Assembly: GCA_000165345.1 (NCBI GenBank)
Contig: CM000429.1
Location: 640,001-704,000 of the forward strand
Direction: 5' to 3'
Length of the DNA: 64,000 bases
The notes under the pieces were generated by a model. The model was not told the DNA's origin. It ran no database searches and worked only from the letters and a program-made list of their open reading frames with translations. Shown here in pieces: positions 17,973 through 63,933 of the stretch (its first letter is position 1; the number at the start of each line of letters is the position of its first letter). Both the position numbers and the translations under genes were made by a program.

Positions 17973-17984
17973 TTTGGCGCCAAA
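17973..17984. promoter_or_regulatory. Palindromic E2F-like site TTTGGCGCCAAA about 65 bp upstream of the CDF transporter ATG
   Basis: Perfect 12-bp GC-core palindrome in an otherwise AT-rich intergenic region. E2F-type GGCGCC motifs are known to be over-represented upstream of Cryptosporidium genes. Confidence 0.5.
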
Positions 17985-21182: not shown

Positions 21183-32522
<11,340 letters not shown>

Positions 32523-40039: not shown

Positions 40040-40408
40040 TTTTTCTTATAAATTAATTTAATTACACATTATTGTGAGGTATTTTTATGTGGCGCAATTT
40101 TGCCCAACACCGTTACTAAAAACTGTCAAACACGTAATGCATGCAGTGACGGTATTAAAAAAAAAATTCATGAGGACAATAATAATAAAAAATTACTCAC
40201 AAAAATTTTGATTAATATAAGAATAATTTTTTTTAATAAAAAAATTAATTACTTCATTTAAAAAAAATTATTTTGAATTTTTATCTGGAAAAAAAATATT
40301 TACATATAATTAATGAACAATAACTAAATAAATATAAATTTATGACAGAAATCTCAAATAATTATTTCAAGCAATAATTAATTCAATTTTGATTTTACAA
40401 GTCGAAAA

Positions 40409-40426
40409 AATTGCATGCATGCAATT
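40409..40426. promoter_or_regulatory. Palindrome AATTGCATGCATGCAATT in the divergent promoter between the 845-aa gene and the WS/DGAT-like gene
   Basis: TGCATGCA core, an ApiAP2-type G-box-like motif described in Cryptosporidium promoters. A near-identical copy is at 59627..59643. Confidence 0.4.
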
Positions 40427-40647
40427 ATTATTCATGTGCGAGTAGTTTTGAGTCAAGCCCATTAAAAATTAATTGGAATTAATTATTTCCGAGGTAAATA
40501 AATTATTAAGAAATTAAATTGATAGAAAAAAATTATAGTTTTGAAAGAGAAAGTAATAATTATTTTAATTAAAAATTTAAAGAAAGGGGAGAGATAAACC
40601 CCAAATAACAGATTTCAAATATCAAAATAAATATATAAAAAAAAATA

Positions 40648-42900
40648 ATGGACCTCCATCCTCATATTAGAGCATTGGATGTAGTAGAGACATTTTGGGA
40701 AACATTCAACGAGCTTGGAAATGTCATAATTTTAAATCCAATAATTGTTAAGTCTTCTTTCCCTATAAGTGTTGATATGGTTAGAGATGCAACACAAAAA
40801 ATGATACAAAGGCATCAATCATTGAGAGTACGAATAATTTCAAAGATGACAAATAGTGAAGGAAAGAAGGCTTTAAAGAGATATTTTGTAGACCTTTGTG
40901 ACAGTGCAGAGGTAGTAATTAGAGAAGAATTTCTATCAACGCAAGAAAATCAAAATTTAGAATTTGAAAATGAACCAGTTTGGGAAAGTATGCTGGTCAA
41001 AGAGCAGAATGAATTTTTCGATAATGAAAATTCTCCATTATGGAGAATTAGAATGATGAGACTCGGAAAGTGCGGAAATACATACAGAACATGTTTTATT
41101 GGGAGCTTTCATCATGCAATAATGGACGGTCTAAGTCGTCAGTATTTCTGGACAGAATTATTAGGTTTATGCGCACTTTCTAATGAATTTCCAGATATAG
41201 CTATTCCAAAAAATAGGCCCACAGCCCTTCCAAAGAGTGTTTGCAAGTACTTTCCTTCTTCATTGAAGGTAAGGCTACTTAAACCATTTTACTCTTGGAG
41301 GGCAACAGCAGCACATGGAGTTTGTTTATATAGAAAGTTGGTGGCACCATTTGAAAATCCGTGTAGTCTTGAAATTTCACGAGACTTATATGCCGATTTT
41401 AAAAAGTCTCCTAGGACAAGCATTTTACCAATAAAAATTTCAAAGGAACTATTAAAGAAATTAATGACAAAATGTAAGGAAAGAAAGATTCAGTTAAATG
41501 GCGCAATAGAGGCAGTTTCAGCTTTAGGACTAATGGGGTTAATATACGAATTGAGAGAAAATAGAATGAATAGAAACTCTGGAGATATTTCCGAGTTGAA
41601 GGATGATGACAAATCACCGGAAAATCAACGCAATAGAGAACTATCGACTACATTAAATTTAAATTGCATGAATAATTGTGCTCCTTTCAATATTAGAGGA
41701 AGTGATTGCTTCATTCAAGGAGCTGAGGGCAATACAATAATTCCAATTAGAACAATGGTTGCAATTAACTGCAGAAGATGGGTAACAAAAGATAACCCTT
41801 CAGTACGCCCAGAAACAAGCAAAGATGTTGAAGCAGATTTAATGAACGTGTTAGAAGTAATGCAGAATAATAATAACAGTGGTACAACAACCACAACTAC
41901 TTTGACAGACAAAAATGATGAGATTGCTATTAAAAATGACTCAACTGAATGCTCAAATTTAAATTCCGGGGATGAAAATATATCTTCATTAGAAAATACT
42001 GAATTTAGTGAAGCTTATGCAAATAGATCAAGAAGCTATAAAAGCCATTCTAGGGAATTCTTTAATAATCTGAATAAAATAAATATATCATTAACAAAGC
42101 TGAATTCACAAAATGGAGAGAAGATTGGCCCATCGTGGCTTAAAAAAGCAGTTTCTAAAGTAATGAGCCCCAAAAATAAAAAATCTAAACAGATTAAAAC
42201 AGTTGGTTTAGGTTCCTATGCAGTGCTTATGGGATTGGACATGAAAGTTGAGAAGGACTGCATGTCAGATATTGATAAGATGTGGGAATTAGCAAACAAT
42301 ACAAACAAGAAAATACATTCAATAGTGGATTCAAAAGACCCATCAGCTGTAACATTTGAGTGGCATGTAATAAGTGGTAAGTTGCTTCATTAATTTAATG
42401 TATTTATTATGAATGAATATTAATTTTTATTAGGTTTTATACACGATTTAGCAAATTCTCCCACAAGGTCTGATAAAAATAGATTATTAATGCAGCTTGG
42501 TGACCCAACAATCAGACCTTCATCGTTTCTAGTTAGTAATGGAGGGTTATGGGATTCAAGCCCATTACAAGAACTAATTAAAAGGATTAATTCAATCACA
42601 ACTGAGCAGGAAGTAATGGTGGAGGTAGAGTCATCATACAGCTGTGTTGCACAGCATAACGTAAGTTTAATCAAAAGAAATTTGGTAAAAAGATAACTAG
42701 AAATTCACTTTATTTGATTTTTCTATTCGAAATATTAAAATTTATAGGCTGGTTTAAATATGTTTGCACATAATATTGTAACTGTTAATGGAGAACTATG
42801 TTGGAGTTTACAGTATCATAGTAATATTACAAGCAAAGAGGTAGCTCAAGCGTACTCAAACCATATTCAGAAGTATATAAATTTACTTGCAGAATCATAG
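40648..42900 (+). CDS. HHxxxDG acyltransferase, wax ester synthase/diacylglycerol acyltransferase (WS/DGAT, CAT/condensation-domain superfamily)-like, 3 exons approx 40648..42376, 42434..42660, 42748..42900
   Basis: SFHHAIMDG at about residue 150, the catalytic HHxxxDG position in bacterial and plant WS/DGAT. The C-terminal region has a SNGG..P motif (compare SNVPGP). Introns: G|GTAAGT...ttattag (57 nt) and AAC|GTAAGT...tttatag (87 nt). Track ORF 42490..42696 falls in exon 2 in the same frame. Confidence 0.55.
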
Positions 42901-42984
42901 AAATTAAATGAAAGTTAATGAGAATTAAACTGAGAAGAAGCCAAGAAATTAGTAAGTTGCAAGTTAAAATCAAAAAATTGGATT

Positions 42985-43001
42985 TGGCGCCGGCGCCAGC
43001 T
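42985..43001. promoter_or_regulatory. Tandem GGCGCC sites (TTTGGCGCCGGCGCCAGC) about 80 bp upstream of SAS10/UTP3
   Basis: Doubled GC-rich palindrome core in an AT-rich spacer. Confidence 0.45.
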
Positions 43002-45544: not shown

Positions 45545-45554
45545 TTGGCGCCAA
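45545..45554. promoter_or_regulatory. TTGGCGCCAA palindrome upstream of UMP-CMP kinase
   Basis: Same motif class, about 410 bp upstream of the ATG. Confidence 0.35.
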
Positions 45555-59626: not shown

Positions 59627-59643
59627 AATTGCATGCATGCAAT
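59627..59643. promoter_or_regulatory. Palindrome ATTGCATGCATGCAAT, second copy
   Basis: 16-bp perfect palindrome about 600 bp upstream of the PH-repeat gene start and about 90 bp past the stop of the 456-aa gene. Confidence 0.35.
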
Positions 59644-63922: not shown

Positions 63923-63933
63923 TTTGGCGCCAA
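63923..63933. promoter_or_regulatory. TTTGGCGCCAA palindrome upstream of the last (minus-strand) gene
   Basis: Same motif class, about 200 bp upstream of the gene start. Confidence 0.4.

What the first reader, a model, noticed from the sequence alone, without database searches (positions are those of the whole stretch)
40648..42900. Bacterial-type WS/DGAT-like (HHxxxDG) acyltransferase encoded with spliceosomal introns
The protein carries the catalytic HHxxxDG motif (SFHHAIMDG) at the position typical of wax-ester synthase/acyl-CoA:diacylglycerol acyltransferases and related CAT/condensation-domain enzymes. Its C-terminal region shows WS/DGAT-like motifs. Neutral-lipid synthesis in apicomplexans is usually attributed to MBOAT-type DGAT1. 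A WS/DGAT-family enzyme would be an unexpected lipid or wax-ester route, or a horizontally acquired gene that has since gained two canonical GTAAGT introns.
Basis: partly seen in the sequence, partly recalled or inferred. Interest (0 to 1): 0.7.

Follow-up and report, generated by a model that had tools for sequence, protein, structure and literature searches.

The report
Stand-alone condensation-family enzyme of Cryptosporidium females

Summary
Joining 40648-42376, 42434-42660 and 42748-42900 removes two GTAAGT..AG introns. The result is a 702-aa protein with HHAIMDG at residues 155-161. [quoted passage not shown]

The family assignment does not hold. Pfam gives only Condensation (PF00668, 37.1 bits against a cut-off of 30.6). 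No WS/DGAT model matches. Orthologs match Condensation, PapA_C and AATase.

Recent horizontal transfer is not supported.
- Orthologs form one clade in Cryptosporidium, coccidia, Rhytidocystis, Cardiosporidium and Chromera.
- Both introns sit at identical positions in C. muris.
- Base composition is native.

Published RNA-seq shows the transcript at the detection floor in asexual stages and about 230-fold higher in female gametes, alongside CpFAS1 and CpPKS1.

My best reading is a thioester-dependent acyl transferase that serves oocyst-related lipid synthesis. That function is inferred, not shown. I rate it a new member of a known kind, of moderate interest.

The parts
40648..42376 (+). Exon 1 (aa 1-576 plus the first base of codon 577). 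It encodes the N-lobe, the inter-lobe linker and most of the C-lobe, including the two clade-specific insertions.
   Evidence: ORF and splice reconstruction. The product is identical to QOY43312.1.
40810..40827 (+). RHQSLR (aa 55-60), which resembles the NRPS C-domain core motif C2 (RHExLRT).
   Evidence: Read directly from the sequence. It aligns with RHplLR in relatives and with AzeD and McyB. The C2 motif itself is named from established knowledge.
41110..41130 (+). The catalytic-type motif HHAIMDG (aa 155-161). The second His (H156) and D160 are the HxxxD pair.
   Evidence: It lies inside the Pfam Condensation match, aa 31-175. It is invariant in the myzozoan orthologs. Model pLDDT here is about 90.
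41560..41727 (+). Insertion 1 (about aa 305-360). It is low in complexity, predicted disordered, and absent from the ~500-aa relatives.
   Evidence: Alignment A4, gap in the hhalign alignment, pLDDT below 50 for residues 310-359.
41881..42192 (+). Insertion 2 (about aa 412-515). It is rich in Asn, Ser and Thr and predicted disordered. An insertion is present at this site in all myzozoan orthologs, with variable sequence and length.
   Evidence: pLDDT is below 50 for residues 412-515.
42377..42433 (+). Intron 1 (57 nt, GTAAGT..TAG, phase 1).
   Evidence: The position is identical in C. muris, where the intron is 74 nt.
42434..42660 (+). Exon 2 (aa 577-652). It contains the conserved RPSSFLVSNGGLWD strand and loop.
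   Evidence: It is conserved as far as Chromera.
42535..42546 (+). SNGG (aa 611-614), the C-lobe motif that aligns with SNLG or SNIG in the stand-alone C-family relatives and in AzeD.
   Evidence: N612 and G614 are nearly invariant in alignment A4.
42661..42747 (+). Intron 2 (87 nt, GTAAGT..TAG, phase 0).
   Evidence: The position is identical in C. muris, where the intron is 81 nt.
42748..42900 (+). Exon 3 (aa 653-702 plus the TAG stop). It encodes the last beta-strands and the C-terminal helix of the C-lobe (AGLNMFAHNIVTVNGELCWSLQYHSN...).
   Evidence: pLDDT is 80-93. It aligns to the C-terminus of AzeD and of the relatives.
40040..40647 (.). Divergent intergenic and promoter region shared with the GCP gene on the minus strand (cgd1_3110). 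It holds three of the seven TGCATGCA sites in the window (40138, 40412, 40416).
   Evidence: 7 sites against 0.46 expected. No function was tested.

Best explanation
The locus is C. parvum cgd1_3120, a single-copy, three-exon gene. It encodes a cytosolic-looking protein with no obvious signal peptide (my reading of the N-terminus). The protein is a stand-alone member of the NRPS condensation (C) domain family, in the branch that also holds PapA5-like, AzeD-like and AATase-like proteins.

Shown:
- Two CAT-like lobes form the usual V-shaped pseudo-dimer (a predicted model, not an experimental structure).
- The intact HHxxxDG motif is well modelled (pLDDT about 90). From the fold family it should sit at the lobe interface, but I did not inspect coordinates.
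- Two disordered, clade-specific insertions lie in the C-lobe.
- The gene is vertically inherited in oocyst-forming apicomplexans and in chromerids.
- In C. parvum it is transcribed essentially only in female gametes, with some transcript in sporozoites.

Inferred mechanism:
- H156 acts as general base or transition-state stabiliser. A hydroxyl group (less likely an amine) of a lipophilic acceptor attacks an acyl thioester and forms an ester.
- The donor would be acyl-CoA or an acyl chain on a carrier-protein domain of the megasynthases CpFAS1 or CpPKS1.
- This is what PapA5 does with mycocerosyl-ACP and phthiocerol.
- The likely biological role is making storage or oocyst-wall ('acid-fast') lipids during macrogamete maturation.

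My confidence is about 0.9 for the family and fold assignment and about 0.35 for the specific acyl-transfer and oocyst-lipid role.
For: Family:
- Pfam Condensation scores 37.1 bits against a gathering threshold of 30.6. All 7 Cryptosporidium orthologs match it.
- Myzozoan orthologs match Condensation, PapA_C and AATase.
- The myzozoan profile aligns to the ~500-aa stand-alone relatives over the full template length: hhalign probability 100, E 1.8e-64, 471 columns. Those relatives carry AATase, PapA_C and Condensation.
- A mixed profile hits AzeD (8s6l) at E 4e-31 over both lobes.

Fold:
- The AF2 model has pTM 0.71 and core pLDDT of 80-94.

Conservation:
- HHxxxDG, RRW and SNxG are kept in all intact orthologs.

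Ancestry:
- Orthologs in other myzozoans. The clade has 200/200 bootstrap support.
- Introns and synteny are conserved in C. muris.

Expression (Tandel 2019, PMC6877471, supplementary files 4 and 5):
- cgd1_3120: asexual 0.96 log2CPM (the floor), female 8.82 in vitro and 9.24 in vivo, logFC 7.86.
- cgd1_3120 bulk samples: sporozoite about 6.6, 24 h about -0.7, 48 h about 8.4.
- CpFAS1 logFC 6.70 and CpPKS1 logFC 3.92 in the same comparison.

Plausible substrates and products:
- The CpFAS1 reductase domain releases very-long-chain acyl chains, speculated to be fatty alcohols (PMC2995488).
- Oocyst walls contain acid-fast lipids, attributed to a PKS (PMC3760245).
Against: - No biochemical or genetic data exist for this gene or its Toxoplasma ortholog in the searchable literature.
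- The closest solved relative, AzeD, is a dehydratase and not an acyltransferase. The authors say the activities of other stand-alone C proteins are unknown.
- With the myzozoan-only profile, links to solved structures are weak: the best is McyB at E 3e-4, with AzeD at 0.41. The PapA5/AzeD affinity therefore rests on intermediate sequences and on a predicted structure.
- The gene does not sit next to FAS or PKS genes. Its neighbours are housekeeping genes.
- Co-expression with FAS1 and PKS1 is shared with hundreds of female-specific genes.
Confidence: 0.55

Rival explanations
1. One reading: a bacterial-type WS/DGAT (wax ester synthase / acyl-CoA:DAG acyltransferase), acquired horizontally and later invaded by introns.
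For: - HHxxxDG lies in the N-terminal third, with a PLW-type motif upstream and an SNxG motif near the C-terminus.
- Outer relatives of the wider family sit on bacterial contigs.
Against: - There is no PF03007 or PF06974 match at E<=10 for the window protein.
- Only 1 of 7 orthologs touches WS_DGAT_cat, at E 0.25. None of 9 other myzozoan orthologs does at E<=1.
- The gene forms a myzozoan-wide clade, with conserved introns and synteny and native GC content.
Confidence: 0.05
2. A trans-acting chain-release or amide-forming condensation enzyme in the strict NRPS sense (like VibH or the enacyloxin C protein). It would couple a carrier-protein-bound acyl or polyketide chain from CpPKS1 or CpFAS1 to an amine or hydroxyl nucleophile, giving a specialised metabolite rather than a bulk lipid.
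For: - The only Pfam match above threshold is Condensation. C2-like RHQSLR and C3 HHxxxDG motifs are present.
- Co-expression with the megasynthases.
- About a third of bacterial stand-alone C proteins lie near NRPS or PKS genes.
Against: - Both Cryptosporidium megasynthases end in a reductase release domain, so no trans release enzyme is obviously required (abstract of PMC6568194; PMC2995488).
- There is no NRPS and no PKS neighbour in the window.
- This overlaps with the best explanation and differs mainly in donor and product.
Confidence: 0.2
3. A non-acyltransferase use of the C fold: a dehydratase or isomerase like AzeD, the CmodAA domains or E domains, or a catalytically inert scaffold or regulator (compare plant CER2-like proteins).
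For: - The best structural and sequence neighbour, AzeD, is a dehydratase.
- Several animal relatives have lost the second His, for example Nematostella THFLICDG. This shows the wider family tolerates non-canonical chemistry.
Against: - The myzozoan clade keeps the full HHxxxDG invariantly, whereas AzeD has PHxxxDG.
- No substrate for a dehydration step is evident.
Confidence: 0.15
4. A short-chain alcohol acetyltransferase (AATase or TRI3-like) that uses acetyl-CoA.
For: - AATase (PF07247) is matched by one Cryptosporidium ortholog at E 4e-5, by Chromera and a relative above the gathering threshold, and by most of the 500-aa relatives.
Against: - The window protein itself has no AATase match.
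- The AATase matches cover only the HHxxxDG region in the myzozoan proteins.
Confidence: 0.05

Closest known systems
AzeD (PDB 8S6L), P. aeruginosa, founding member of the 'C_standalone' clade of condensation-family proteins
   Same: - A free-standing two-lobe C fold.
- The best sequence-profile hit through the mixed family alignment, covering both lobes.
- Shared RHplLR, xHxxxDG and SNxG motifs.
   Different: - AzeD is a bacterial, 433-461-aa dehydratase with PHxxxDG.
- The Cryptosporidium protein keeps HHxxxDG, carries two long disordered insertions, is eukaryotic with introns, and has no known pathway.
- The direct profile match from the myzozoan-only alignment is insignificant (E 0.41).
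PapA5 (PDB 1Q9J), M. tuberculosis phthiocerol dimycocerosyl transferase, and the Pfam PapA_C family
   Same: - PapA_C is matched by the 500-aa relatives and weakly by myzozoan orthologs.
- It is an attractive functional analogy: transfer of megasynthase-made acyl chains onto lipid alcohols for an acid-fast coat.
   Different: - No PapA_C match for the window protein.
- Only 13% identity in the structural alignment.
- No evidence for ACP-dependent transfer.
- A different kingdom, and the insertions.
NRPS condensation, epimerisation and cyclisation domains (Pfam PF00668)
   Same: - The only Pfam model above its curated threshold.
- C2- and C3-type motifs.
   Different: - It is not part of a multidomain synthetase.
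- No adjacent carrier or adenylation domains.
- The Pfam match covers only the N-lobe, aa 31-175.
WS/DGAT (AtfA-type; PDB 6CHJ, 7NXG; Pfam PF03007 and PF06974)
   Same: - The same superfamily fold, with HHxxxDG in the N-terminal domain.
- The chemistry (an acyl thioester plus a fatty alcohol or DAG gives an ester) is a plausible model for what this protein does.
   Different: - No Pfam match.
- Weaker profile hits than the C-family proteins.
Fungal AATase, TRI3 and MEL acyltransferases (PF07247; PDB 3FP0, 8JOS)
   Same: - AATase matches in relatives and in some orthologs.
   Different: - The window protein does not match PF07247.
- These enzymes use acetyl- or acyl-CoA on secondary-metabolite alcohols, and no such pathway is known in Cryptosporidium.

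Membership tests
WS/DGAT (wax ester synthase / acyl-CoA:diacylglycerol acyltransferase) | HHxxxDG motif in the N-terminal catalytic domain | tested here: met
   HHAIMDG at aa 155-161. This does not discriminate, because the motif is shared with C domains, PapA5 and AATases.
WS/DGAT (wax ester synthase / acyl-CoA:diacylglycerol acyltransferase) | Significant match to Pfam WS_DGAT_cat (PF03007) | tested here: not met
   No hit at E<=10 for the window protein. One of 7 Cryptosporidium orthologs hits at E 0.25. None of 9 other myzozoan orthologs hits at E<=1.
WS/DGAT (wax ester synthase / acyl-CoA:diacylglycerol acyltransferase) | Match to the C-terminal WS/DGAT domain (PF06974, formerly DUF1298) | tested here: not met
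   It is absent from all Pfam scans.
WS/DGAT (wax ester synthase / acyl-CoA:diacylglycerol acyltransferase) | WS/DGAT structures are the nearest structural neighbours | tested here: not met
   [not shown]
WS/DGAT (wax ester synthase / acyl-CoA:diacylglycerol acyltransferase) | Wax-ester or TAG synthase activity | not testable with these tools
   This needs an enzyme assay.
Condensation-domain family (Pfam PF00668; NRPS C-type HxxxD enzymes) | Pfam PF00668 score above the gathering threshold | tested here: met
   37.1 bits against 30.6, E 2e-9, aa 31-175 on profile positions 30-158. All 7 Cryptosporidium orthologs match the family at the listing cutoff E<=10, best E 1.3e-9; per-member scores against the gathering threshold were shown only for P0001 (37.7 bits).
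Condensation-domain family (Pfam PF00668; NRPS C-type HxxxD enzymes) | Core motifs C2 (RHExLRT-like) and C3 (HHxxxDG) | tested here: met
   RHQSLRVRI at aa 55-63 and FHHAIMDGLS at aa 154-163, aligned to the same motifs of McyB and AzeD. The motif definitions come from established knowledge.
Condensation-domain family (Pfam PF00668; NRPS C-type HxxxD enzymes) | Two CAT-like lobes forming a V-shaped pseudo-dimer | tested here: met
   [not shown]
Condensation-domain family (Pfam PF00668; NRPS C-type HxxxD enzymes) | Embedded in, or encoded next to, carrier-protein-containing synthetase modules | tested here: not met
   No other domains are present in the protein. The neighbours are GCP, Sas10/Utp3, adenylate kinase, cyclin and UTP20. 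It therefore belongs to the stand-alone subclass.
Stand-alone C proteins (PapA5-like, AzeD-like; Pfam PapA_C PF16911) | Full-length homology to free-standing ~450-530-aa proteins that carry Condensation and PapA_C | tested here: met
   hhalign A5 against A6: probability 100, E 1.8e-64, template columns 38-511 of 516.
Stand-alone C proteins (PapA5-like, AzeD-like; Pfam PapA_C PF16911) | Direct PapA_C (PF16911) match above threshold | tested here: not met
   No hit for the window protein. Orthologs hit below the gathering threshold only, E 5.6e-6 to 0.04.
Stand-alone C proteins (PapA5-like, AzeD-like; Pfam PapA_C PF16911) | AzeD and PapA5 are the nearest solved structures | tested here: met
   [not shown]
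Stand-alone C proteins (PapA5-like, AzeD-like; Pfam PapA_C PF16911) | Acyl transfer from a PKS or FAS carrier protein to a lipid alcohol (the PapA5 reaction) | not testable with these tools
   There is only circumstantial co-expression with CpFAS1 and CpPKS1.
AATase (alcohol acetyltransferase, PF07247) | Pfam PF07247 match above threshold | tested here: inconclusive
   No hit for the window protein. One of 7 Cryptosporidium orthologs hits at E 4.2e-5. Chromera P0012 scores 29.8 bits (threshold 22), but only over the HHxxxDG region.

The most novel reading that the evidence does not exclude
cgd1_3120 and its orthologs (TGME49_248440 and the Eimeria, Cyclospora and Cystoisospora genes) would be the apicomplexan counterpart of mycobacterial PapA5. 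On this reading, a female-gamete-specific stand-alone condensation enzyme takes the very-long-chain or polyhydroxy products of the type I FAS and PKS megasynthases and esterifies them into the acid-fast, waxy lipids of the oocyst wall. It would be the missing coupling step of that pathway and a transmission-blocking target shared by oocyst-forming parasites.
Probability: 0.2. Interest if true: 0.75.

Novelty: new member of a known kind. Interest (0 to 1): 0.42.

Why it matters
- How coccidia and Cryptosporidium build the lipid layer that makes oocysts environmentally resistant is unresolved. The megasynthases have been implicated, but no enzyme that joins their products to acceptors is known.
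- This gene has the PapA5-type fold and an intact catalytic motif. It is strictly female-specific and co-regulated with CpFAS1. Named orthologs come from oocyst-forming lineages and chromerids; none of the named top hits is from Plasmodium or piroplasms, though their absence was not formally tested.
- It is therefore a concrete candidate that current C. parvum genetics can test.
- The analysis also corrects a tempting mis-assignment (WS/DGAT acquired by horizontal transfer).
- It shows that OrthoMCL-style grouping missed the Eimeria and Toxoplasma orthologs, and that the T. gondii ME49 model is probably split.

Tried and rejected
I used the 98%-identical P0001 instead.
- AF2 with only 7 Cryptosporidium sequences gave pLDDT 32 and was unusable. 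It was replaced by a 19-sequence alignment.
- NCBIfam gave no hit.
- A single-sequence PDB search gave only McyB at E 0.06.
- Homologous-protein run with alignments returned only close relatives of the first row. Several distant relatives could therefore not be used for folding.
A structure-based check for Plasmodium homologs was not possible.
- The first tree script timed out. The second produced NaN distances and a meaningless comb tree, and its '200/200' must be ignored. One search, with Poisson distances, is the valid one. It is only a neighbour-joining tree without WS/DGAT sequences.
- Literature searches by accession, locus tag and phrase found nothing on this gene or on TGME49_248440.
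- The 2026 Toxoplasma sporulation paper has no held supplements.
- I considered a gene cluster with lipid or PKS genes and rejected it. The neighbours are housekeeping genes.
Full report
**1. The observation**

The window is AT-rich (29.7% GC). An ATG at 40648 opens a 581-codon ORF that runs into a stop just after a GTAAGT at 42377. Joining 40648-42376, 42434-42660 and 42748-42900 removes two introns of 57 and 87 nt. Both are GTAAGT..AG, 16-18% GC, and carry stop codons. The result is an in-frame 2109-nt CDS of 702 aa.

HHAIMDG lies at residues 155-161 (nt 41110-41130). An exact-sequence look-up finds this 702-aa protein as QOY43312.1, WKS76217.1 and WRK30708.1, [quoted passage not shown]. The original Iowa II record EAK88335.1 / XP_628128.1, "peptide synthase like condensation domain", is the 581-aa unspliced ORF.

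A published expression table names the gene cgd1_3120. Its listed neighbours are cgd1_3130 Sas10/Utp3, cgd1_3140 adenylate kinase and cgd1_3150 cyclin. These match the window's neighbours.

**2. Which family**

Pfam gives one significant match: Condensation (PF00668), 37.1 bits against a gathering threshold of 30.6, E 2e-9, covering aa 31-175. Nothing is reported for WS_DGAT_cat or the WS/DGAT C-terminal domain, even at E<=10. NCBIfam gives nothing.

- Across 7 Cryptosporidium orthologs, all match Condensation. One matches AATase (E 4e-5) and one touches WS_DGAT_cat at a meaningless E of 0.25.
- Nine further orthologs from other apicomplexans and Chromera match Condensation, PapA_C and AATase, and never WS/DGAT.
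- By inspection the protein also has an NRPS C2-type RHQSLR motif (aa 55-60) upstream of the C3 HHxxxDG motif.
It is a superfamily feature.

**3. Distant relatives**

A profile of the Cryptosporidium proteins, searched against 1.84 billion representatives, found 181 proteins at E<=1e-3.

- The top tier (E 1e-83 to 1e-35) is Rhytidocystis, Chromera velia (two paralogs), Cystoisospora, Cardiosporidium, Eimeria, Cyclospora, and Toxoplasma/Hammondia TGME49_248440.
- The next tier (E 1e-20 to 1e-10) is free-standing proteins of about 500 aa. They come from cnidarians, hemichordates and unnamed metagenomic contigs. Their Pfam matches are AATase, PapA_C and Condensation.
- Profile-profile comparison of the myzozoan set with these 500-aa proteins gives probability 100 and E 1.8e-64 over essentially the whole template.

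Both lobes are therefore homologous. The myzozoan proteins differ by two long low-complexity insertions in the C-lobe (C. parvum aa ~305-360 and ~385/412-515).

A mixed profile hits PDB 8s6l at E 4e-31 over both lobes. It then hits NRPS C domains (about 1e-14), WS/DGAT 6chj (1e-7) and PapA5 1q9j (2e-6). 8S6L is AzeD, a P. aeruginosa stand-alone C-family dehydratase that founds a "C_standalone" clade (bioRxiv 10.64898/2026.07.17.738954).

Caveat: with the myzozoan-only profile the PDB links are weak. McyB scores 3e-4, AzeD 0.41 and WS/DGAT 0.52. The placement therefore depends on the intermediate sequences.

**4. Structure**

- A first AF2 run with a shallow alignment failed (pLDDT 32).
- With 19 sequences the model reached pTM 0.71. 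pLDDT is 80-94 in the core and below 50 in the linker (204-248) and in the two insertions.
- Foldseek agrees: 8s6l is first, and no WS/DGAT appears in the top 50.

The old 581-aa gene model would lack the SNGG strand and the last sheet strands, which are predicted with high confidence. The introns are therefore structurally necessary.

**5. Origin**

- A neighbour-joining tree on 430 well-occupied columns recovers the myzozoan proteins as one clade in 200/200 bootstraps. They sit beside the eukaryotic or unnamed 500-aa proteins, with bacterial-context relatives and NRPS C domains outside.
- In C. muris, a gastric species whose protein is 60% identical, both introns are at the same CDS positions and phases but have different lengths and sequences. 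The flanking GCP and Sas10/Utp3 genes are syntenic.
- CDS GC (34%) and GC3 (27%) fall within the range of the neighbouring genes.

Nothing supports a recent bacterial acquisition. An ancient one, before the apicomplexan-chromerid ancestor, cannot be tested here. None of the named top hits is from Plasmodium or piroplasms, and the clade-specific motifs occur only in the taxa listed plus a few unnamed fragments. Absence from those lineages is not proven.

**6. Expression, from the literature**

The data come from Tandel et al. 2019 (PMC6877471). The sorted-cell values below are log2CPM.

| Gene | Asexual | Female in vitro | Female in vivo | logFC |
|---|---|---|---|---|
| cgd1_3120 | 0.96 (floor) | 8.82 | 9.24 | 7.86 |
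| CpFAS1 (cgd3_2180) | 4.58 | 11.28 | 11.17 | 6.70 |
| CpPKS1 (cgd4_2900) | 5.54 | 9.46 | 5.97 | 3.92 |

In bulk samples cgd1_3120 is about 6.6 in sporozoites, about -0.7 at 24 h and about 8.4 at 48 h.

The same paper's cross-species table lists cgd1_3120 under a Cryptosporidium-only ortholog group. The wider conservation shown here was therefore not recognised.

**7. Mechanism**

Shown:
- an intact, invariant HHxxxDG in a confidently modelled C-type fold;
- stand-alone architecture;
- female-specific transcription.

Inferred from the family (NRPS C domains, PapA5, AATase and WS/DGAT all use the second His of HHxxxDG to promote nucleophilic attack on a thioester):
- H156 and D160 catalyse transfer of an acyl group from acyl-CoA or acyl-ACP to a hydroxyl or amine.

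Further inferred from context:
- the donor or the acceptor derives from CpFAS1 or CpPKS1. Their reductase domains are thought to release very-long-chain aldehydes or alcohols (PMC2995488).
- the products contribute to oocyst lipids. Oocyst walls are acid-fast and contain unusual triglycerides attributed to a PKS (PMC3760245). That paper does not mention this gene.

In this sense the protein may work like a wax or ester synthase without being a WS/DGAT.

**8. Rivals**

- A trans-acting NRPS-style coupling enzyme making a specialised metabolite.
- A non-acyltransferase use of the fold, as in AzeD, CmodAA or E domains, or an inert CER2-like scaffold.
- A short-chain AATase.

The last is refuted as a membership claim. 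The others cannot be separated without biochemistry.

**9. Novelty and score**

The gene and its Pfam domain are already annotated, so the feature is not a discovery. New here are:
- the reassignment from "WS/DGAT-like" to the stand-alone C / PapA5 / AzeD branch;
- recognition of a conserved myzozoan clade with lineage-specific insertions;
- the link to female-specific expression, which gives a testable oocyst-lipid hypothesis.

I rate it a new member of a known kind, interest about 0.4.

**10. What led nowhere**

- Alignment-seeded word searches returned only close relatives.
- afdb50 was unavailable.
- One tree run timed out, and one gave NaN distances. Its output, including its bootstrap figure, is invalid.
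- Searches for the gene by accession or phrase found no paper.
- One Toxoplasma paper had no held supplements.

Noticed in passing
L002 228-1211 and 2001-6143 (T. gondii ME49 chromosome record CM002047.1): The Toxoplasma ortholog TGME49_248440 is annotated as starting at 'MDGLSRQNFW', which is inside the HHxxxDG motif. In-frame DNA just upstream reads '...PGPLWRLRLF...YRTKILGIFHHSVMDGLSRQ'. The separately called 327-aa gene upstream encodes the family's N-terminus (RRLDPTDLFWQAYHNIGNLMI...RHQALRCSI...EQKISFDTKGG). The two models look like one gene split by a missed intron.
   Followed up: partly
window 40138-40145, 40412-40423 (also 10572, 48750, 59630-59641): The palindromic octamer TGCATGCA occurs 7 times in the window against 0.46 expected. 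Three copies lie in the 608-bp divergent intergenic region between the GCP gene and cgd1_3120. It may be a cis-regulatory motif; no function was tested.
   Followed up: no
window 42984-42991 (also 17974-17983, 45545-45554, 63924-63933): TTGGCGCC (an E2F-like GGCGCC core) occurs 7 times against 0.10 expected. The copies checked fall between ORFs; one is 90 bp upstream of the Sas10/Utp3 gene, just downstream of cgd1_3120.
   Followed up: no
Alignment A4, columns ~380-395 (proteins P0022, P0049, P0028, P0051, P0024): Several of the ~500-aa animal or metagenomic relatives have lost one of the two histidines of HHxxxDG: Nematostella THFLICDG, P0049 THYLVCDC, P0028 EHCAISDG, P0051 FHPAVVDG, P0024 SHAIIDG. 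All myzozoan orthologs keep HH. Many of these relatives also have a hydrophobic N-terminal segment that the Cryptosporidium protein lacks.
   Followed up: no
Tandel et al. 2019 supplementary file 6: cgd1_3120 is listed under ortholog group OG5_194957 with no Eimeria or Plasmodium partner. Clear orthologs nevertheless exist in Eimeria, Cyclospora, Cystoisospora and Toxoplasma. The long divergent insertions probably break ortholog clustering.
   Followed up: partly
P0017 (C. muris fragment) and P0003 (C. canis), alignment A1: Some database entries are intron read-throughs. P0017 translates straight through C. muris intron 2, which happens to be open. The C. canis model retains intron 1 as a 20-aa insertion. 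Several species' models (C. xiaoi, C. ryanae, older C. hominis and C. parvum) stop at the end of exon 1.
   Followed up: partly
P0019 (Cyclospora cayetanensis OEH76940.1): The Cyclospora model lacks the HHxxxDG segment and part of the C-lobe, although the flanking conserved blocks are present. This is probably a gene-model or assembly defect rather than true loss.
   Followed up: no
window 21183-32522 (+): A 3779-aa intronless ORF whose only Pfam match is the UTP20 domain (E 8e-41). It is a very large nucleolar pre-rRNA processing protein. The window also holds a Sas10/Utp3 gene.
   Followed up: no
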